From the IMG/VR virus record IMGVR_UViG_2695420576_000002, positions 1-12,124 of that record: 12,124 nucleotides of DNA; one strand, given 5' to 3'. This stretch comes from a virus. Lineage: Duplodnaviria; Heunggongvirae; Uroviricota; Caudoviricetes. This document shows positions 562 to 8,074 of the stretch, in pieces; within the stretch, counting starts at the first letter, position 1; each line of letters starts with the position of its first letter. Made by a program: the position numbers and the translations under genes. The notes beneath the pieces were generated by a model, which was not told where the DNA came from, did not search any database, and saw only the letters and a program-made list of their open reading frames with translations.

Positions 562-2331
562 ATGAATGCTGCCCTGACTGAACGACTGGTTTATGTCGCC
601 CGCGCGGCACGTGACGCGGGGCATGGTAAACGCGGTGCAATATACGACGCTGCCTGTGCTGAACTTGGCATGTCCCGCGCCACTCTGCTGCGCAGGCTGA
701 AGGAGGTCTCTGTGACTGATAAACGCAAAAAACGCGCTGATGCCGGACGCAGCGCCCTGACCCGCGACGAAGCCGCGCTGATATCTGCCACACTGCGTGA
801 GGCCACCCGCAAGAACGGTAAGCGTCTCTATTCCATCGCGGATGCAGTGGAAACCCTGCGGGCTAACGGCTTTATCTCCGCAGGCAGAACAGATGAAACC
901 ACCGGTGAGTTTTTCCCGTTGTCCGAAGATGCCATCAGTCGTGCCCTGCGTAACTATGGCCTGCACCCGGAACAACTGGATGCTCCTGCGCCGCATACCG
1001 AAGTGGCCAGTCTGCATCCCAATCATGTCTGGCAGATTGATGCCTCGCTCTGCACGCTTTACTACCTGAGCAATGGACACAAAGGGCTGCAGGTGATGGA
1101 CAGCGCGAAGTTCTACAAGAACAAACCCGCTAACCTTGCCCGTATCGCCAGTGACCGCGTGTGGAGTTACGAGATTACCGACCATGCCAGCGGCTGGATT
1201 TACGTTGAGTATGTGACGGGTGCGGAATCCGGTGAGAACCTGTGTTCTGTGCTTATCAACGCCATGCAGGAGCGTGGCGGCGCAGACGTGCTGCACGGCG
1301 TGCCAAAAATACTCTATCTCGACCCCGGTTCGGCAAACACCGCGGGTATGACGAAAAACATGTGCCGCTCACTGGGCATTGACCTGATAGCGCACAAGCC
1401 GCATAACGCCCGCGCCACCGGACAGGTGGAAAAGGCGCGTGACATTATCGAACGCAAGCTGGAGCCGGGTCTGAAGTTCCGGCCGGTTCACAGTCTGGAA
1501 GAACTCAACGCGCTGGCCGCGAAATGGCGCAGCCACTTTAACGCCACGGCTGTTCACAGCCGCCACGGTAAAACCCGCACGGATATCTGGCTGAAGATTA
1601 CTGCTGAGCAGCTGAAAAAAGCGCCTTCCGTTGAGGTATGTCGTGAACTGGCTGTGGCGGCACCAGAACTCCGCAAAGTCACGCCAAAACTTCGTGTCTC
1701 GTTCCGGGGCACTGAATTTGACGTATCAACGGTACCGGGCGTACTGGTTGGTGAAAAACTGATGATTACCCGTAACCCATGGCGCAGCGATGTGGCACAG
1801 GTGGTTCTGACCGGTGAGGACGGCCACGAGACGTTCTTCCTGGTCGAAGAGGTCAGAAAGAACGAGTTTGGCTTTGCTGAAGGCGCGGCGGTATTTGGCG
1901 AAAGTTACAAAGCCCTGCCGGAAACCCCGGCACAGATGGCGGCAAAAGAAACCGAAGCGCTGGTTACCGGTACAGACAACGCCGCAGATGCAGCCGCCGC
2001 ACGCAAGGCGAAGGCGCTGCCGTTCGGCGGGCGGCTTGACCCGTATAAACATATCGACGACACCACACTTCCGGCCTATATGCCGAAGCGTGGTCAGGCC
2101 TCTGACGTACGCGGGCCGCGCACTGAACAACGTCCCATGACTCATGTGGAGGCCGCGAAAGCCCTGCGCGATAAGTTCAGCGCCGACGGCCTTACCTGGA
2201 CGCCGGAACATTACCGCCAGTTAACGGCACAGTACCCGGACGGCGTACCGGAAGCCGCACTGGATGAAGTCATGGCCACGCTGACCACACCGGCCCGCAG
2301 CAGTGTTATCAGCATTGTTAACGGCAACTGA
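562..2331 (+). CDS. DDE transposase, Mu A-like (retroviral-integrase superfamily), 589 aa
   Basis: ATG at 562 with GGAGG 10 nt upstream. Candidate catalytic triad D160 (HVWQIDAS), D254 (LYLDPGS), E290 (TGQVEKA), giving the classic 35-36 residue D-to-E spacing. N-terminal region looks HTH-like. Shorter than MuA (663 aa) and unlike the MuA sequence as recalled. Confidence 0.85.
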   Translation: MNAALTERLVYVARAARDAGHGKRGAIYDAACAELGMSRATLLRRLKEVSVTDKRKKRADAGRSALTRDEAALISATLREATRKNGKRLYSIADAVETLRANGFISAGRTDETTGEFFPLSEDAISRALRNYGLHPEQLDAPAPHTEVASLHPNHVWQIDASLCTLYYLSNGHKGLQVMDSAKFYKNKPANLARIASDRVWSYEITDHASGWIYVEYVTGAESGENLCSVLINAMQERGGADVLHGVPKILYLDPGSANTAGMTKNMCRSLGIDLIAHKPHNARATGQVEKARDIIERKLEPGLKFRPVHSLEELNALAAKWRSHFNATAVHSRHGKTRTDIWLKITAEQLKKAPSVEVCRELAVAAPELRKVTPKLRVSFRGTEFDVSTVPGVLVGEKLMITRNPWRSDVAQVVLTGEDGHETFFLVEEVRKNEFGFAEGAAVFGESYKALPETPAQMAAKETEALVTGTDNAADAAAARKAKALPFGGRLDPYKHIDDTTLPAYMPKRGQASDVRGPRTEQRPMTHVEAAKALRDKFSADGLTWTPEHYRQLTAQYPDGVPEAALDEVMATLTTPARSSVISIVNGN

Positions 2332-2341
2332 GGAGGGAAAC

Positions 2342-3508
2342 ATGCTGGTACTGAAGCAGCAACTGAAAGAGGCCCGTATTCCACAGGCGGTGGTGGCGAG
2401 AGCTGTCGATGTTTCTGAGGCCACGCTGGCCCAGATTGTGAATCATAACGCGTGGCCCCGCACCAGCCCCGGAGAAGTGCGCCGGCGTCTTGCGTCCTGG
2501 CTGGAAAGTCAGGGGATTGATACAACGAAGAGTTTTGATGCTGTACAGGGCGCGGCCACGCCCCGTACAGCGGGTACCACAGATAAAACGAGCCTCAGTG
2601 AGGAAGAGAATATGTTACTCAAAAAACAGGTGTTATTTCCAGCAACCAAAAAAGCGTTTGGTCTTTTCCGTGACCCGTTCGCCGACGAAGCCATGCAGGG
2701 TTCTGATGATGTGTTCACCACCCCGGATATTCGCTACGTGCGTGAGGCGTTGTACCAGACAGCCCGTCATGGTGGGTTTATGGCCGTCATCGGTGAGTCC
2801 GGTGCGGGTAAATCCACGCTGCGCCGCGACCTGACTGAACGTATCAACCGCGAGAATGCGCCGGTAATTGTTATCGAGCCATACATCATCGCTATGGAAG
2901 ACAACGATGTGAAAGGGAAAACCCTGAAGGCAGCAGCGATTGCCGAAGCCATTATCAGTACCATCGCACCACTGGAAAGCATCAGACGCAGTCAGGACGC
3001 CCGCTTTCGCCAGTTGCATCGCGTCCTGAAAGACAGCAGCCAGGCGGGGTTCAGCCACGTTCTGGTGATTGAGGAGGCCCACAGTCTGCCCATTCCGACA
3101 CTGAAACACCTCAAACGCTTTTTTGAGCTGGAGTCCGGTTTCAAAAAACTGCTGTCCATCGTGCTGATTGGCCAGCCGGAACTGGCGACAAAACTGTCTG
3201 AACGCAATATGGAAGTCCGTGAAGTCGTTCAGCGCTGTGAGGTGGTCGAACTTCTGCCTCTGGACAATAACCTTGAAGAGTTTCTGACGTTCAAACTGCA
3301 ACGGGCCGGTAAACAACTGACGGACATTATGGACGCCAGCGCAGTGGATGCCATACGTGCCCGCCTGAGCAATCCGGGAAGTCATCGTAAAAATATGGTC
3401 AGCCTGCTGTATCCGCTGGCCGTCAGTAACCTGGTAATAGCCGCCATGAATCTGGCCGCTGAAATCGGGGTTCCACAGGTCAACGCTGACGTTGTCAAAG
3501 GGGTTTAA
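2342..3508 (+). CDS. transposition target-DNA activator ATPase, Mu B-like AAA+ protein, 388 aa
   Basis: Start chosen at ATG 2342 (AGGAGGG at 2331-2337) rather than the ORF-track start at 2303. Walker A GESGAGKST and Walker B-like VLVIEEAH. N-terminal HTH-like segment. Sits directly after the transposase, as B does in Mu. Confidence 0.8.
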   Translation: MLVLKQQLKEARIPQAVVARAVDVSEATLAQIVNHNAWPRTSPGEVRRRLASWLESQGIDTTKSFDAVQGAATPRTAGTTDKTSLSEEENMLLKKQVLFPATKKAFGLFRDPFADEAMQGSDDVFTTPDIRYVREALYQTARHGGFMAVIGESGAGKSTLRRDLTERINRENAPVIVIEPYIIAMEDNDVKGKTLKAAAIAEAIISTIAPLESIRRSQDARFRQLHRVLKDSSQAGFSHVLVIEEAHSLPIPTLKHLKRFFELESGFKKLLSIVLIGQPELATKLSERNMEVREVVQRCEVVELLPLDNNLEEFLTFKLQRAGKQLTDIMDASAVDAIRARLSNPGSHRKNMVSLLYPLAVSNLVIAAMNLAAEIGVPQVNADVVKGV

Positions 3509-3510
3509 TA

Positions 3511-3780
3511 ATGAAATCCACCACAGGTATCAACCAGCAAATCAGCAAAGTGCAGTCAGCCATTATGGCGCTTAAGGCGACGAACACGGATGTACAAAGC
3601 ATCACCATCAGGGGTAACAAACCTGTCATCCGCGTTTCCCGGAGTGCGCATTGCATGCGCATGCTTGAGCAGGGAAAGGCCTGTTATCTGTATACCGGTC
3701 ATGACCACAGGGGACATTTCCGTCAGGGCGTTTTCGAACTGCACGGCTGTCGCGTCGTGTGGCCGGAATCTTTGTGGTAA
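3511..3780 (+). CDS. hypothetical small protein (89 aa)
   Basis: ORF starts 3 bp after the B stop, same strand, within the operon. No recognisable motifs. Confidence 0.45.
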   Translation: MKSTTGINQQISKVQSAIMALKATNTDVQSITIRGNKPVIRVSRSAHCMRMLEQGKACYLYTGHDHRGHFRQGVFELHGCRVVWPESLW

Positions 3781-3807
3781 TCAGCACAACAGGAGGAGTC
3801 ATAAAAT

Positions 3808-4338
3808 ATGGCAAAAAGTACAAAAGGGGCAAAACGTATCAAAGCCGCAGCAGCACTCTGGGTGCCGGGGACACGCGAAGAGGTCATTGAGGGAATCAGA
3901 CTGCTTGGTGACGCGCAACGTGAACTGGTCAGGGCTGAAACAGAAATGAATGACACCATTGGCGACATCACTGCACGTTATGCCCCGCTCACCGAGAGCC
4001 TGAAAAAACGCATGGCCGAACTGCAGTCCGGTATCCAGACATGGTGTGAGGCGCACCGTGATGAACTGACCGGCAACGGGAAGGTGAAGTTCGCTAACCT
4101 CACCACCGGCGAGGTGCAGTGGCGAAACCGTCCGCCGTCAGTCAGCATTCGCGGGGCGGATAATGTCATTGAACTGCTGAGACGTCTGGGGCTTGAGCGC
4201 TTTATTCGTGTAAAGGAGGAAATAAATAAAGATGCCATTCTGAATGAAAAAGAGGCTGTGAAAAATATTCCCGGTATTACCATAAAAAGTGATATTGAGG
4301 ATTTTTCAATAATTCCTTTTGAGCAGGATGTGCAGTAA
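3808..4338 (+). CDS. gam: Gam-like host-nuclease inhibitor / DNA-end-binding protein
   Basis: 176 aa. AGGAGG at 3791-3796. The translation closely resembles Mu Gam as recalled, including the C-terminal IEDFSIIPFEQ segment and internal segments such as ETEMND, RPPSVSIRG and RFIR.KEEINK. Confidence 0.85.
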   Translation: MAKSTKGAKRIKAAAALWVPGTREEVIEGIRLLGDAQRELVRAETEMNDTIGDITARYAPLTESLKKRMAELQSGIQTWCEAHRDELTGNGKVKFANLTTGEVQWRNRPPSVSIRGADNVIELLRRLGLERFIRVKEEINKDAILNEKEAVKNIPGITIKSDIEDFSIIPFEQDVQ

Positions 4339-4380
4339 ACACACCACGTTAATTATTTAATAAAAACATTTTCTTTTTTA

Positions 4381-4417
4381 TTCCGGCGTCAGCGCCGCGG
4401 GCTTCTGCACGCCGGAA
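4381..4417. repeat. perfect 9-bp inverted repeat TTCCGGCGT / ACGCCGGAA around a 19-nt GC-rich spacer
   Basis: Read directly from the gam to zinc-ribbon intergenic region. Preceded by a T-rich stretch, followed by the RBS and ATG at 4436. No U-tract after the stem, so it is not a classic intrinsic terminator. Confidence 0.6.
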
Positions 4418-4435
4418 ACAGAGGAGAATTAAATT

Positions 4436-4630
4436 ATGATATTTAAATGTATTCAGTGCGAGAGGGATATAACAGCCCTGCGTTTTCACAGCGCCATCGC
4501 CGTGATGTCCGGTAAGTATCACATACCTGCAGTACGTGTCACCCTGGTCTGCCCGTACTGCAGCCAGCATTTTTCGGCGGACGTGCCCGTCATGGAATTC
4601 TCCCGCCCTGACAGGGAGGACGCGCAATGA
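4436..4630 (+). CDS. zinc-ribbon protein (CxxC...CxxC), 64 aa; possibly an Ogr/Delta-like or Com-like regulator
   Basis: C5/C8 and C39/C42 pairs. N-terminus MIFKCIQC resembles the Ogr/Delta start MFHCPLC as recalled. RBS AGGAG lies upstream of the ATG at 4436. Confidence 0.5.
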   Translation: MIFKCIQCERDITALRFHSAIAVMSGKYHIPAVRVTLVCPYCSQHFSADVPVMEFSRPDREDAQ

Positions 4631-4899
4631 TTACCCCACAGGAAGCACGACAGCGCACCCGAACTCTTGTTGAACACTATGTCAACGAGTGTGAATGCCG
4701 CGACCTCACCGATGTGAAGCACGTCCTGACGGCGCTAATCAGCATGGCCACACAGGCCATTGTGGCGACCAACGGAAAGGAGGCTGCCCTGCAGGTACTG
4801 ATGAACACACTCACCCACACGGCAGAGCATGAGGTGCCGTACCGGATGGAAACCACTGCAGAAGGCGGCCTGCACATCACCGTCAGCCGGAAGCACTGA
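4627..4899 (+). CDS. hypothetical protein (90 aa)
   Basis: ATGA start/stop overlap with the upstream ORF at 4627-4630, suggesting translational coupling. RBS AGGGAGGA upstream. No family recognised. Confidence 0.45.
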   Translation: MITPQEARQRTRTLVEHYVNECECRDLTDVKHVLTALISMATQAIVATNGKEAALQVLMNTLTHTAEHEVPYRMETTAEGGLHITVSRKH

Positions 4900-4908
4900 G
4901 GGCGCGGC

Positions 4909-5205
4909 ATGACACGAAACACCGAACTCACCCGCACCGCCCTCTACCGTCTGGCCCTGCAGCGTTTCGGGCCGGACGCACAGGCCCTGAAACTGGCAGA
5001 AGAGGCCGCTGAACTGGCGGCCAGTGCCGCCCGCAACCTGAACGGACAGGGCAGCGAAAGTGACCTCGCGGCAGAGCTGGCAGACGTGGAAATCATGACA
5101 GAGCAACTGCGCCTTCAGGGGATGGACCGGCTGATTGACTTCCACAAACAGAAAAAACTGGAACGTCTGGCTGCACGACTGGGCGTGATTTACACGAACG
5201 AGTAA
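4909..5205 (+). CDS. MazG-like nucleotide pyrophosphohydrolase family protein (tentative), 98 aa
   Basis: About 100 aa and helical. Acidic motifs LAEEAAELA and ELADVEIM are spaced like the EExxE and ExxD metal-binding motifs of small MazG-type NTP pyrophosphatases. Assigned from motifs only. Confidence 0.45.
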   Translation: MTRNTELTRTALYRLALQRFGPDAQALKLAEEAAELAASAARNLNGQGSESDLAAELADVEIMTEQLRLQGMDRLIDFHKQKKLERLAARLGVIYTNE

Positions 5206-5219
5206 CCGGGAGGCATTCA

Positions 5220-5435
5220 ATGGCTGACATACTCAGGGAAATCACCGCATGGACACTGATTCTTACTGGCCTGGCGACATGCCTCAGTGCGGGGGCAGCC
5301 CTGGCTGCCCTGCTGATGCACATAACAACACAGTGGTTATGGGAAAAGCTTAAAGCAGCATACAGCCTGAAAGAGCTGTCCGACGCTGTCCGGGCATGGA
5401 AACGGCAGAAAAATACCGGAGATACAGAACAATGA
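5220..5435 (+). CDS. small membrane protein (71 aa, one predicted transmembrane helix)
   Basis: Hydrophobic segment WTLILTGLATCLSAGAALAALLM followed by a charged C-terminus. RBS GGGAGG upstream. Confidence 0.4.
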   Translation: MADILREITAWTLILTGLATCLSAGAALAALLMHITTQWLWEKLKAAYSLKELSDAVRAWKRQKNTGDTEQ

Positions 5436-6115
5436 CAGACCAGAATAAACACATTGAGAAACTGAAAAAGTTGCTGGCGCTGGCCGCATCCGGCAACCCG
5501 CACGAGGCCGCTCTGGCACTGCGCCGAGCCCGTAAACTGATGGATGTTCACGGCATCACACATTCCGACATTGCTATGAGTGATATTGATGAAACCATCA
5601 GTCACTACTGGCCGACAGGCAGTCTCCGTCCACCGCGCTACATGCTGGGCCTGATGAACATCATCCGCGAGGTATTTGGTGTTAACTCCATCATTCACCC
5701 CGGCACGCATCCGTCTGTGGGGTTCTACGGCAACCGGGAACGTGCGGCACTGGCTGCATACACCTGGGAAGTGCTGGCCCGTCAGCTGAAAAAGGCGCGT
5801 CAGCAGTATATCAGTGCACAGAACAAAAGAATAAAAACCGCCACCCGCACCAGCCGTGGAGACCAGTTTGCCGAAGGCTGGGTGCTGGCCGTTATCAGTG
5901 AAATACAGTCCTTTGCCCTGACCGATGATGAGCGTGAACTGATGCAGCAGTGGCTGGAACATAAATACCCGCAGACGCAAACCACCAGGGCGCGTAAACC
6001 GGGAAGAAGCCGCAATGGCGACGCCTCGCGCTATGCGGGGTTTCGTGAAGGGCAGAACGTCAGACTGCACCGCCCGGTCAGTGGGCAGGAACAACAGAAA
6101 CTGGAGGCCAGATGA
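5432..6115 (+). CDS. DUF2786-like phage protein, 227 aa
   Basis: Start chosen at ATG 5432 (ATGA overlap with the preceding stop, GGAGA upstream) rather than 5396. N-terminal IEKLKKLLALAASGNPHEAALALRRARKLM matches the conserved N-terminal signature of the DUF2786 family as recalled. Confidence 0.55.
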   Translation: MTDQNKHIEKLKKLLALAASGNPHEAALALRRARKLMDVHGITHSDIAMSDIDETISHYWPTGSLRPPRYMLGLMNIIREVFGVNSIIHPGTHPSVGFYGNRERAALAAYTWEVLARQLKKARQQYISAQNKRIKTATRTSRGDQFAEGWVLAVISEIQSFALTDDERELMQQWLEHKYPQTQTTRARKPGRSRNGDASRYAGFREGQNVRLHRPVSGQEQQKLEAR

Positions 6116-6342
6116 TTACGCTATCAGGTAAAAGCCGGAAATTAAAAGCCTGCCGAATATCTGCCAGATACCTTTTTGCCCGCGCCTTTTTTAAGAACGT
6201 CAGGCCGGGGATCACAATTGGTGTTATTGCCGGACGCGAACAGGTTGAAAAATACATGTCAGGTGCATGGTGGAATAACGACCCTGTCATTGCTGCCCGT
6301 AATATTCATATCGAATGGGGAGGTATTCAGAATGACTACTGA
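6112..6342 (+). CDS. hypothetical small basic protein (76 aa)
   Basis: ATGA overlap with the upstream stop and GGAGG at 6103-6107. However the 5' half is AT-rich and contains a palindrome and T-runs, so part may be regulatory rather than coding. Confidence 0.3.
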   Translation: MITLSGKSRKLKACRISARYLFARAFFKNVRPGITIGVIAGREQVEKYMSGAWWNNDPVIAARNIHIEWGGIQNDY

Positions 6343-6538
6343 AACCATTGTCTGTTTTCTTTTCTGGTATATGTACGCAGGATCATGCAGCGCAAGACTT
6401 CATCGTTCCCTGGGCTATGGCAGGCACTACGACACCGCGCATTACATCCTGTACATGACCGCCGTCATGTTGTTCTGGCCAGTCACCCTGCCAGCTGCAA
6501 CCGACATTGTTGCCGACAGACTGAAAAAAAGGAGATGA
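6331..6538 (+). CDS. small membrane protein (69 aa, two hydrophobic segments)
   Basis: ATG at 6331 with GGGGAGG at 6316-6322. Hydrophobic stretches IVCFLFWYMYAG and ILYMTAVMLFWPVTL. Confidence 0.4.
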
Positions 6539-6539
6539 T

Positions 6540-6989
6540 ATGCAGAAAAAACGCCTGATACAGCTTATCCATATTGCCCGTAATGAACTGGGTATGGATG
6601 AAGACACCTACCGCCAGATGTTACAGGGGCTGACCGGTAAAGCCTCAACCAAAGGAATGGATACCACACAACTAAACTGCGTGCTGGAATCCATGAAAAA
6701 GAAAGGCTTTCGCGTTAAACCAGCCAGAAAAGCCAGCTCCGGTTTACCGCTTGATAACCATCCGCAGTCCAGGAAAATTCGTGCGCTATGGCTTGAAATG
6801 GCTGCTGCCGGCATTGTTCGTGACCGTTCAGAAAATGCATTAGCGAGGTGGATCAAGCGGGAAACGGGCATCAGCGCCCTGCGCTGGCTCAGTACTGAAC
6901 AGGCAAGCAGTGTTATTGAGAAACTGAAGAAGTGGCAGCGCAGAGCTGCGGGAGTCAAACATGAGCGACCTGAATCAGTTTCGAAGTAA
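6540..6989 (+). CDS. gemA: GemA/gp16-like regulatory protein (DUF1018 family)
   Basis: 149 aa. The translation matches the gp16 family pattern as recalled (LIQLIHIA...L.GLTGK.S...M...QL..VLE.MK..GF). GGAG upstream of ATG 6540. Sits immediately before the mor-like gene, as in Mu. Confidence 0.7.
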   Translation: MQKKRLIQLIHIARNELGMDEDTYRQMLQGLTGKASTKGMDTTQLNCVLESMKKKGFRVKPARKASSGLPLDNHPQSRKIRALWLEMAAAGIVRDRSENALARWIKRETGISALRWLSTEQASSVIEKLKKWQRRAAGVKHERPESVSK

Positions 6990-7350
6990 GGGGCCGGAAC
7001 TCCTGGTGGAACTGGCACAGCATACCTCTGAGACCGTTCGCGAGATTATTGATATTGAGCCCGAAGTTGCCGACCAGATTGGTCAGGCCGTCGCGAACCG
7101 AATGATGCAGGTCTGGGGCGGGCAAAACGTTTATTTCCCGATGGGCATGGTATGGAAGGTCAGTCAGCGCGACCGGGAAATCTTCAGGGAGTTTAACGGA
7201 CGCAACCACCACGAACTGGCCCGCAAATTTGGTGTTTCGCTTCAGTGGGTCTACAGCGTGGTTAAGCGGGTAAGAAAAGAAGAACTGGATCGGATGCAGG
7301 GCAAGCTATTTGCTGATGAACCCGATGCAGATACGGAGAAAAAAGAGTAA
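6961..7350 (+). CDS. mor: Mor-like middle-operon transcriptional activator
   Basis: 129 aa, the same length as Mu Mor. C-terminal HTH region FNGRNHHELARKFGVSLQWVYSVVKR resembles the Mor/C family. Last gene of the early operon. Overlaps the gemA 3' end by 29 bp. Confidence 0.8.
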   Translation: MSDLNQFRSKGPELLVELAQHTSETVREIIDIEPEVADQIGQAVANRMMQVWGGQNVYFPMGMVWKVSQRDREIFREFNGRNHHELARKFGVSLQWVYSVVKRVRKEELDRMQGKLFADEPDADTEKKE

Positions 7351-7511
<161 letters not shown>

Positions 7512-7673
7512 CAAATACGGCAATCCCGACGATGGGGATCAGCGCCAGCACGGTAGCAACGGCCTGTACGCGGGTGATCATTTTCGGACCGACAATGTTC
7601 AGCAGGACGAAGATCCACAGCACCACGACGCAGGTGATGGTTAATACCAATGGATCTTTCAGAATCGGGAAGA

Positions 7674-7734
7674 AGTAACTTAAATATCTAACTTAAATAT
7701 CCTACGCCAAAGTAACTTAAATATCCTACGCCAA
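7674..7734. repeat. nested direct duplication within adiC: 22-bp unit TAACTTAAATATCCTACGCCAA at 7689-7710 and 7713-7734, plus a 13-bp partial copy at 7676-7688 (net +37 bp)
   Basis: Read directly from the sequence. Relative to the expected single copy encoding IGVGYLSYF, the extra 37 bp shifts the frame and creates a TAG stop (translation ...[15 protein letters not shown]). Confidence 0.8.
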
Positions 7735-7735
7735 T

Positions 7736-7777
7736 GACCACCATGGCGATATTGCCGACCACCATGGCGATATTGCC
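7736..7777. repeat. perfect 21-bp tandem duplication GACCACCATGGCGATATTGCC x2 within adiC (in-frame repeat of GNIAMVV)
   Basis: Read directly from the sequence. The - strand translation shows [13 protein letters not shown] where native AdiC, as recalled, has a single NIAMVV. Confidence 0.85.
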
Positions 7778-8074
7778 GATCCAGCAGGCCAGCCAGTAGA
7801 GGACGTTGGTTTGATAACCGAGAAACGGGCCAAAGCAGCGGCGGGCGTAAGCGTAAGAACCACCAGGACTTGGGTCGAGGAACGACATTTTGGCGTATAC
7901 CATCGAGAGCCCCAGCGCACCGATAATCGTCACCAACCATCCATAAATAGCAATCCCGCCAGTGGAGGCCAGGTTTGCAGGTAACAGAAAAACACCTGAC
8001 CCCATAATATTCCCCGACACCATCAGGGTGACGGGGATTAAGCCCACTTTGTGAGCATCAGCATCCGAAGACAT

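What the first reader, a model, noticed from the sequence alone, without database searches (positions are those of the whole stretch)
4909..5205. Candidate MazG-like NTP pyrophosphohydrolase in the phage early operon
The 98-aa protein has two acidic helical motifs (LAEEAAELA and ELADVEIM) spaced as in the small all-helical MazG/HisE-type pyrophosphatases. Phage-encoded members of that family have been proposed to hydrolyse alarmone or signalling nucleotides. If it is active, it could alter host nucleotide pools or counter nucleotide-based defence. The assignment is from motifs only.
Basis: inference. Interest (0 to 1): 0.45.

Follow-up and report, generated by a model that had tools for sequence, protein, structure and literature searches.

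The report
Small MazG-type nucleotide pyrophosphatase in Mu-like prophage
The 98-residue gene is a real, conserved phage gene that almost certainly encodes a minimal MazG/HisE-type enzyme cutting pyrophosphate off nucleoside triphosphates; this is a common kind of phage accessory enzyme, here unannotated, and its true substrate is unknown.

Summary
ORF 4909-5205 (+) lies in the early operon of a BcepMu-like transposable prophage inserted in adiC. It is 100% identical to a 'hypothetical protein' of Escherichia phage PhiKM.

- **Family size:** a profile of close homologues finds more than 10,000 cluster representatives. Nearly all are 85-110 aa and unannotated (PHROG 2245).
- **Conserved motifs:** the acidic tetrad E32-x-x-E35 ... 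E56-x-x-D59 and a basic K83/R86 pair are nearly invariant.
- **Pfam:** this protein itself stays below Pfam thresholds. However, 54 of 113 relatives hit PF03819 (MazG) and one passes the gathering score.
- **Synteny:** the gene is held between gam and gemA/mor in Mu-like phages down to about 42% identity. In other phages it sits in DNA replication and recombination modules.

The best reading is an early-expressed, Mg2+-dependent (d)NTP pyrophosphohydrolase acting as a homodimer. Its substrate and role are not determined; pool sanitising, (p)ppGpp hydrolysis or counter-defence remain open. This is a new member of a known kind, of modest interest.

The parts
4909..5205 (+). Gene for the 98-aa minimal MazG/HisE-type all-alpha NTP pyrophosphohydrolase (stop codon included)
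4898..4902 (+). Shine-Dalgarno-like GAGGG, 6 nt upstream of the ATG; overlaps the stop codon of the upstream ORF (4897-4899)
   Evidence: Read directly from the sequence.
4999..5013 (+). Codons E31-E32-A-A-E35, the EExxE motif on helix 2; E32 and E35 are the predicted metal ligands
   Evidence: E31 is invariant and E32/E35 are conserved in >=90% of 113 relatives. Counts are 79-80 of 80 viral loci. The E-x-x-E pattern matches Glu35/Glu38 of S. solfataricus MazG (PMC2954211) and Glu119/Glu122 of Mtb MazG (PMC10014863).
5074..5097 (+). Codons E56-L-A-D59-V-E61-I-M63, the ExxD motif on helix 3; E56 and D59 are the predicted metal ligands
   Evidence: D59 is invariant; E56, A58, V60, I62 and M63 are conserved in >=90%. 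The stretch aligns with EELGDV of the Bacillus MazG 5ie9. The pattern matches Glu54/Asp57 of 1vmg.
5146..5169 (+). Codons K80-Q-K-K83-L-E-R86-L87, a conserved basic patch on the C-terminal half of helix 3/4; candidate triphosphate-binding residues (inferred)
   Evidence: K83 and R86 are conserved in >=90% and L87 is invariant. K83 is present in 79/80 and R86 in 79/80 viral loci. hhalign places this stretch on the 'KFERRF' segment of the catalytic C-terminal domain of E. coli MazG, but without statistical support.
4436..4630 (+). Context: 64-aa protein with two CxxC pairs (zinc-ribbon-like by inspection, PHROG 3401) that travels with the MazG-like gene
   Evidence: In relatives lacking the 90-aa ORF it lies directly upstream of the MazG-like gene (e.g. 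L025-L041). In the called protein P0036 it is fused to the MazG-like domain.
3808..4338 (+). Context: Gam (host-nuclease inhibitor), the upstream boundary of the syntenic block
   Evidence: Pfam Phage_Mu_Gam at E=1.1e-40. Synteny.
6540..7350 (+). Context: GemA-like (6540-6989) and Mor-like late activator (6961-7350), the downstream boundary of the syntenic block; the prophage ends at about 7512
   Evidence: PHROG 286, 532 and 836. PhiKM annotation. Synteny. Phage homology ends at 7513-7517 and adiC homology begins at 7512.

Best explanation
The gene encodes a minimal, single-domain member of the all-alpha NTP pyrophosphohydrolase superfamily (MazG / HisE / dimeric dUTPase).

Structure and chemistry. 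Each 98-aa protomer is a hairpin of two long helices. Two protomers would pack into the four-helix bundle that forms the active site (inferred by analogy with S. solfataricus MazG). E32 and E35 on one helix and E56 and D59 on the other would hold Mg2+. K83 and R86 would hold the triphosphate. The enzyme would cut between the alpha and beta phosphates, giving (d)NMP and pyrophosphate.

Expression and role. The gene is transcribed with the early operon of a BcepMu-like transposable prophage, between gam and gemA/mor, so it acts at the start of lytic growth. The most likely role is to clean or reshape the host (d)NTP pool while the phage replicates by transposition using the host replisome.

What is shown and what is inferred. 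Shown here: the gene is real, the fold, motif conservation, synteny and family size. Inferred: dimerisation, catalysis, substrate and physiological role.
For: - **Sequence profiles:** PHROG 2245 at E=5.5e-34, plus weaker hits to three other MazG-annotated PHROGs. PRA-PH is the only Pfam family with E<0.1 for this protein. Of 113 relatives, 54 hit Pfam MazG, 17 hit PRA-PH and 9 hit MazG-like, against at most 5 for any other family. P0171 scores 25.1 bits against a 22-bit cut-off.
- **Solved structures by sequence:** the family profile retrieves five MazG-type structures among 11-12 PDB hits: 5ie9 (E=0.009), 2q73, 2q5z, 2gta and 1vmg.
- **Motifs:** E31, D59, Q66 and L87 are invariant. E32, E35, E56, K83 and R86 are conserved in >=90%, and in 79-80 of 80 viral loci. 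The E-x-x-E ... E-x-x-D ligand pattern is documented for 1vmg, C. jejuni dUTPase and Mtb MazG.
- **Context:** the gene is syntenic between gam and gemA/mor in Mu-like contigs down to about 42% identity. In non-Mu phages it lies beside primase/helicase, ERCC4-type nuclease, DNA methyltransferase and RecE-like exonuclease genes.
- **Transcription:** no + strand promoter-like site and no terminator-like site was found in 4300-5500.
Against: - This protein itself passes no Pfam or NCBIfam curated threshold.
- Single-sequence search of the PDB gives nothing significant.
- hhalign against E. coli MazG is in the right motif register but statistically insignificant, with probability below 1%. This holds for the single sequence and for 101 homologues (those listed were at least 80% identical to E. 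coli MazG).
- Foldseek against the PDB gives no E<0.1 (run on the first, lower-confidence model).
- No assay, no dimer model and no coordinates were available to check the geometry of the four acidic residues.
- Nothing identifies the substrate.
Confidence: 0.7

Rival explanations
1. Alarmone hydrolase acting as counter-defence. The enzyme would hydrolyse (p)ppGpp, as reported for the MazG-like Atd1 of Pectobacterium phage PcCB7V and proposed for E. coli MazG. This would prevent stringent-response-triggered toxin activation or abortive infection during early lytic growth.
For: Atd1 is a short single-domain phage MazG-like enzyme. It is reported to act on ppGpp (Km about 50 uM) but not rNTPs, and to rescue cells from TIR-STING and retron-TIR (bioRxiv 10.1101/2022.06.09.495361). 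The target has the same size class, the same motif pattern and early expression. The host carries relA-mazEF-mazG.
Against: - The likely Atd1 gene (QQG33500.1, 86 aa, two genes from the nucleotidyltransferase; my identification) shows no significant similarity to the target: BLASTP E=0.25 and hhalign probability 0.4%.
- No nucleotidyltransferase is found in the window's operon.
- Cyanophage S-PM2 MazG neither binds nor hydrolyses (p)ppGpp and prefers dGTP and dCTP (PMC6850273). A phage MazG fold therefore does not predict alarmone activity.
Confidence: 0.15
2. Destroyer of an antiviral or immune nucleotide. The enzyme would selectively hydrolyse a host-made linear triphosphate that poisons or signals against the phage. 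Examples are chain-terminating ddhNTPs from viperin-like enzymes, dITP-type signals or other modified NTPs.
For: There is only indirect support. The chemistry (alpha-beta cleavage of a triphosphate) fits such substrates. Residues outside the metal site are family-specific, notably the invariant Q66 and the conserved W/F20-G21 and Q25. The gene is retained in many temperate phage lineages.
Against: There is no match to any PADLOC defence model and no recognised anti-defence gene among the neighbours. Literature searches found no phage MazG with such an activity. Neighbours in other phages are replication and recombination genes, which fits pool maintenance equally well.
Confidence: 0.08
3. Not an enzyme. 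It would be a small helical dimerisation or regulatory protein whose acidic motifs are a by-product of amphipathic helices, or a catalytically dead MazG-fold binder.
For: The protein is short and wholly helical. Family profiles also pick up designed coiled coils and a protein deposited as a STAS-domain anti-sigma-factor antagonist, 3zta, at E=3e-4. This protein passes no curated Pfam threshold.
Confidence: 0.05
4. A phage copy of HisE (phosphoribosyl-ATP pyrophosphatase) that supplements host histidine biosynthesis.
Against: Both hits are far below the curated cut-offs: 15.5 against 21.3 bits, and 14.6 against 42.7 bits. Relatives match MazG three times as often as PRA-PH. No histidine-pathway gene is nearby in the window or in related loci.
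Confidence: 0.02

Closest known systems
Sulfolobus solfataricus MazG SSO3215 (PDB 1vmg), the minimal MazG protomer
   Different: It is archaeal and chromosomal, and I know of no defined substrate for it. The loop between the two motif helices is 5 residues shorter (16 against 21 residues from the second Glu to the third). Sequence-only similarity is weak (profile E=0.36).
Bacillus-conserved MazG (PDB 5ie9), B. subtilis YpjD (2gta) and integron iMazG (2q73/2q5z)
   Same: These are the best sequence-profile matches among solved structures: E=0.009, 0.18 and 0.075-0.16. The alignment is in register at EExxE and ExxD. They are single-domain enzymes of about 100 aa. iMazG is also carried on a mobile element.
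   Different: E-values are borderline, and all are cellular or integron genes. From my memory of Robinson et al. 2007 (not checked here), iMazG is a tetramer with a preference for dCTP and dATP. Nothing here shows that the target shares that preference.
PHROG 2245 (phage 'nucleoside triphosphate pyrophosphohydrolase' family)
   Same: A direct, strong match: E=5.5e-34, covering residues 1-97 of the protein. This is the family the protein belongs to.
   Different: The PHROG name comes from remote-homology annotation, not experiment. The profile is 218 positions long and the target covers only positions 113-211, so some members carry an N-terminal extension or a second domain (see the longer relatives).
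Atd1, MazG-like anti-TIR defence protein of Pectobacterium phage PcCB7V
   Same: It is a short single-domain phage MazG/HisE-like protein with the same motif layout. It is a working example of a phage enzyme of this fold used against host immunity through (p)ppGpp depletion.
   Different: There is no detectable sequence relationship beyond the motif register. Atd1 sits next to a nucleotidyltransferase in a 146-kb lytic myovirus. The target sits in a Mu-like early operon with no such neighbour.
Cyanophage S-PM2 MazG and E. coli MazG (tandem-domain)
   Same: They belong to the same superfamily and perform the same chemistry. S-PM2 MazG shows that a phage-encoded member can be a true (d)NTP pyrophosphohydrolase, here preferring dGTP and dCTP (PMC6850273).
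   Different: E. coli MazG has 263 aa and two domains, and it clearly passes Pfam PF03819. The target is a single 98-aa domain below the Pfam threshold. hhalign to E. coli MazG is not significant.

Membership tests
All-alpha NTP pyrophosphohydrolase superfamily (MazG / HisE / dimeric dUTPase) | All-helical protomer whose two long antiparallel core helices match solved MazG/HisE protomers | tested here: met
All-alpha NTP pyrophosphohydrolase superfamily (MazG / HisE / dimeric dUTPase) | Four acidic metal ligands in the pattern E-x-x-E ... E-x-x-D on two helices | tested here: met
   E32, E35, E56 and D59 are conserved in >=90-100% of 113 relatives and in 79-80 of 80 viral loci. The pattern is as in 1vmg, C. 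jejuni dUTPase and Mtb MazG. Convergence of the four residues in 3D could not be checked because no coordinates were available.
All-alpha NTP pyrophosphohydrolase superfamily (MazG / HisE / dimeric dUTPase) | Four-helix-bundle active site formed within a protomer or by dimerisation | not testable with these tools
   Only single-chain prediction was available. Dimerisation is inferred from 1vmg.
All-alpha NTP pyrophosphohydrolase superfamily (MazG / HisE / dimeric dUTPase) | Divalent-cation-dependent hydrolysis of the alpha-beta phosphoanhydride bond of nucleoside triphosphates | not testable with these tools
   This needs a biochemical assay.
Pfam PF03819 (MazG domain) | Score at or above the gathering threshold (22 bits) | tested here: not met
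   The target gives no PF03819 hit at E<=10. The family consensus scores 14.8 bits. One relative, P0171, passes at 25.1 bits. 54 of 113 relatives hit at E<=0.1. The family therefore lies at the edge of this Pfam model, inside its clan.
Pfam PF01503 / TIGR03188 (HisE, phosphoribosyl-ATP pyrophosphatase) | Score above the curated cut-off, and histidine-biosynthesis context | tested here: not met
   Scores are 15.5 against 21.3 bits and 14.6 against 42.7 bits. No his genes occur in the window or in related loci.
PHROG 2245 | Significant full-length match to the family profile | tested here: met
   E=5.5e-34, 118.9 bits, residues 1-97.
Atd1-type phage (p)ppGpp pyrophosphatase | Detectable homology to Atd1 and adjacency to a phage nucleotidyltransferase | tested here: not met
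   BLASTP gives E=0.25 and hhalign gives probability 0.4% against QQG33500.1, my inferred Atd1. No nucleotidyltransferase is found among the operon's proteins.
Atd1-type phage (p)ppGpp pyrophosphatase | Hydrolysis of ppGpp/pppGpp | not testable with these tools
   This needs a biochemical assay.
Known anti-phage defence systems (PADLOC) | Match to any defence-system protein model | tested here: not met
   No hit for the target or for eight neighbouring early proteins.

The most novel reading that the evidence does not exclude
This unannotated family of more than 10,000 cluster representatives may not be a general house-cleaning enzyme. It may be a dedicated early counter-defence factor of transposable and other temperate phages. 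In that reading it would hydrolyse a specific regulatory or antiviral nucleotide, such as (p)ppGpp as Atd1 does, or a host-made toxic or signalling triphosphate. It might work together with the co-travelling protein with two CxxC pairs at 4436-4630.
Probability: 0.2. Interest if true: 0.6.

Novelty: new member of a known kind. Interest (0 to 1): 0.3.

Why it matters
The practical gain is annotation. This protein and its relatives, more than 10,000 cluster representatives in all, are almost all labelled 'hypothetical protein' and carry no Pfam domain. They can now be named as minimal MazG-type NTP pyrophosphohydrolases.

The biological point is that a nucleotide-pool enzyme is a stable part of the little-understood 'semi-essential' early region of Mu-like phages, held between gam and gemA/mor. 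These phages replicate with the host replisome and carry no nucleotide-metabolism genes in the early region examined here.

Published phage MazG enzymes differ in substrate: dGTP and dCTP for a cyanophage enzyme, ppGpp for Atd1. The family is therefore a cheap, testable candidate for either pool sanitation or counter-defence. None of this would surprise a specialist.

Tried and rejected
- **Single-sequence PDB search:** only noise (IWS1, designed repeats).
- **Shallow alignment:** the PDB profile search with the 16-sequence alignment A2 gave 5ie9 at only E=0.63. The AlphaFold model from A2 had pLDDT 83. Foldseek on that model gave no E<0.1, although DCTPP1, 1vmg and 5ie9 were near the top. A deeper alignment fixed the model.
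- **hhalign of the family alignment against E. coli MazG as a single sequence:** probability 0.6%.
- **Third large protein search:** I spent it on E. coli MazG to build a MazG profile. The 120 proteins listed were all at least 80% identical. The profile built from 101 of them had Neff 1.7. hhalign gave a 71-column alignment in the correct motif register but probability 0.4%. This was inconclusive and, in hindsight, a poor use of that search.
- **Atd1 comparison:** I located the probable Atd1 gene in PcCB7V by reading the whole annotated genome. No significant similarity was found.
- **Domain fusions:** Pfam on longer relatives with extra N- or C-terminal sequence gave nothing informative.
- **PADLOC on the target and its neighbours:** nothing.
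- **tblastn against deposited phages:** only 4 records, all unannotated or 'hypothetical'.
- **Rejected, opposite-strand 161-aa ORF:** codon-position pattern and homologues support the + frame.

Full report
**1. The observation**

The window carries, on the + strand, the early operon of a transposable (Mu-like) prophage.
- The genes in order are a PHROG 1748 protein cut by the window start, an rve-type transposase (562-2331), a MuB-like AAA+ protein (2303-3508) and Gam (3808-4338).
- A run of small ORFs follows, then a DUF2786/DUF7168 protein, GemA-like and Mor-like genes.
- The DNA is 99.3% identical to Escherichia phage PhiKM, classified as a Bcepmuvirus, in which the target is annotated 'hypothetical protein'.
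- Phage homology stops at about 7512, where a disrupted adiC begins.

The ORF named in the finding runs 4909-5205 and encodes 98 residues.
- A GAGGG sequence lies 6 nt before the ATG.
- The motifs LAEEAAELA (residues 29-37) and ELADVEIM (residues 56-63) are as described.
- Among related viral loci, substitutions fall 1732/1488/3103 by codon position, so this frame is the coding one.
- No promoter-like site on the + strand and no terminator-like site lies around it.

**2. Family**

- The protein has 46 close homologues in Enterobacterales, nearly all unnamed and without a Pfam domain.
- A profile of these, scored against 1.84 billion cluster representatives, finds 10,530 proteins at E<=1e-3 and 2,020 at E<=1e-10. 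Most are 85-110 aa.
- In 113 relatives that are 29-68% identical to the target, E31, D59, Q66 and L87 are invariant.
- A16, G21, Q25, E32, E35, L36, E56, A58, V60, I62, M63, K83 and R86 are kept in at least 90%.
- In 80 viral loci, the acidic positions E31, E32, E35, E56 and D59 and the basic positions K83 and R86 are each kept in 79-80.

**3. Is it MazG-like? Sequence evidence**

- The target matches PHROG 2245 ('nucleoside triphosphate pyrophosphohydrolase') at E=5.5e-34. It also matches three other MazG-annotated PHROGs weakly.
- In Pfam the only family with E<0.1 is PRA-PH/HisE, at E=0.023, below the cut-off. NCBIfam gives the HisE domain at E=0.029. By itself the protein therefore fails curated thresholds.
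- At family level the signal is clear. Of 113 relatives scanned one by one, 54 hit PF03819 (MazG), 17 hit PF01503 (PRA-PH) and 9 hit PF12643 (MazG-like) at E<=0.1. No unrelated family is hit by more than 5.
- One relative, P0171, passes the MazG gathering score at 25.1 against 22 bits.
- The family profile retrieves five MazG-type structures among its 11-12 PDB hits by sequence: 5ie9 at E=0.009, then 2q73, 2q5z, 2gta and 1vmg. The remaining hits are designed helical bundles and one likely chance hit.
- The 5ie9 alignment puts EExxE on EEMGE and E-x-A-D on EELGD.
- Profile-profile comparison with E. coli MazG was inconclusive. The register was correct over 71 columns, but the probability was below 1%. 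The template alignment I could build was nearly redundant.

**4. Is it MazG-like? Fold evidence**

- With the 64-sequence alignment, AlphaFold gives pLDDT 96.2 and pTM 0.81. The model has two long helices, 9-44 and 50-90, with G21-P22 marking the join of a short first helix (compare).
- 2yxh, 4qgp, 2q5z, 2p06, 2a3q (DCTPP1-type), 2gta and 3cra also appear.
[quoted passage not shown] Its metal ligands are Glu35, Glu38, Glu54 and Asp57 (PMC2954211).
- Mtb MazG uses Glu119, Glu122, Glu138 and Asp141, and C. jejuni dUTPase uses Glu46, Glu49, Glu74 and Asp77 (PMC10014863).
- The target's E32, E35, E56 and D59 reproduce this i, i+3 ... j, j+3 pattern.

I could not model a dimer or inspect coordinates.

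**5. Context**

- In viral contigs the gene keeps the same place, downstream of gam and upstream of gemA/mor. This holds from 100% down to about 42% identity, where GemA is only 35-40% identical.
- A 64-aa protein with two CxxC pairs (4436-4630) usually lies just upstream. In one called protein it is fused to the MazG-like domain.
- In more distant relatives with no detectable Mu genes, the neighbours are primase/helicase, ERCC4-type nuclease, DNA methyltransferase, RecE-like exonuclease, HNH endonuclease and a PAPS-reductase-like protein. This is a replication and recombination module.
- There is no match to defence-system models.

**6. Mechanism**

The best-supported reading is an early-expressed homodimeric Mg2+-dependent pyrophosphohydrolase that converts (d)NTPs to (d)NMPs and pyrophosphate.
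- **Shown:** the gene is real, its conservation, fold class, ligand pattern and genomic placement.
- **Inferred:** dimerisation, catalysis, phosphate binding by K83 and R86, and the substrate.

Published phage enzymes of this fold differ in substrate.
- Cyanophage S-PM2 MazG prefers dGTP and dCTP and does not touch (p)ppGpp (PMC6850273).
- Atd1 of phage PcCB7V is reported to act on ppGpp and not on rNTPs, and to blunt TIR-based abortive infection (bioRxiv 10.1101/2022.06.09.495361).
- I located the probable Atd1 gene. It is an 86-aa 'phosphoribosyl-ATP pyrophosphatase' two genes from the nucleotidyltransferase.
- Its similarity to the target is not significant beyond the motif register.

The alarmone idea therefore remains a minority rival, not the lead. 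Given the replication-module neighbours in other phages, I rank dNTP-pool cleaning or reshaping first.

**7. Comparison and novelty**

- The protein works like, and belongs to, the all-alpha NTP pyrophosphohydrolase superfamily. Its specific family is PHROG 2245.
- It is not a formal member of Pfam PF03819 or PF01503 by their thresholds. It is not a HisE orthologue, not an E. coli-type tandem MazG and not an Atd1 homologue.
- It is a new member of a known kind.

**8. Verdict**

The result is useful for annotation and gives a simple experiment, but it is ordinary for phage biology. I score interest at 0.3.

Noticed in passing
window 7676-7779 (- strand adiC): Three perfect, partly nested tandem duplications lie inside adiC: 13 bp x2 at 7676-7701, 24 bp x1.9 at 7689-7734 and 21 bp x2.1 at 7736-7779. 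They add 58 bp, produce the '[14 protein letters not shown]' translation and break the frame. In the complete E. coli genomes listed, this stretch aligns in three pieces spanning 331 bp for 389 query bases. That shortfall equals the 58 bp. No genome covered the whole query. It could be a real private mutation or an assembly artefact.
   Followed up: partly
window ~7512: The Mu-like prophage end abuts adiC at about codon 150, so the arginine/agmatine antiporter gene of the acid-resistance locus (adiC-adiY-adiA) is split by the insertion. None of 5,426 complete E. coli genomes has this junction; the best places cover either the phage part or the adi part only.
   Followed up: partly
window 4436-4630 (+); protein P0036: A 64-aa protein with two CxxC pairs (zinc-ribbon-like by inspection, PHROG 3401) travels with the MazG-like gene. 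In many relatives it lies directly upstream. In the called protein P0036 it is fused to the MazG-like domain, with 55% identity over 55 residues. It may be a functional partner, or the fusion may be a frameshift artefact.
   Followed up: partly
proteins P0012, P0029, P0031 (169 aa); P0051, P0058 and other relatives of 130-290 aa: Some family members carry a C-terminal extension of about 70 aa. Others carry N-terminal extensions or a second matched stretch, which may be a tandem domain. Pfam finds nothing in the extensions.
   Followed up: partly
window 562-7350 versus the phage end at ~7512: The early operon (transposase, MuB-like, gam ... mor) reads towards the prophage end, and mor is the last gene before the end. 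In the PhiKM record, tail genes follow on the other strand because that record is permuted. From memory, this is the BcepMu-type layout and not the Mu layout.
   Followed up: no
window 5220-5435 and 5396-6115 (+): A 71-aa predicted membrane-like protein (PHROG 3958) overlaps the mechanically called start of the DUF2786/DUF7168 protein. PhiKM annotates the latter from the position equivalent to 5432, so the true start is probably downstream of 5396.
   Followed up: no
locus L085 2104-3985 (Pectobacterium phage PcCB7V): An 86-aa 'phosphoribosyl-ATP pyrophosphatase' (QQG33500.1) lies two genes from a nucleotidyltransferase (QQG33502.1). It is probably the Atd1 of the TIR/STING anti-defence preprint. 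It too scores below the Pfam PRA-PH cut-off, at 19.6 against 21.3 bits.
   Followed up: partly
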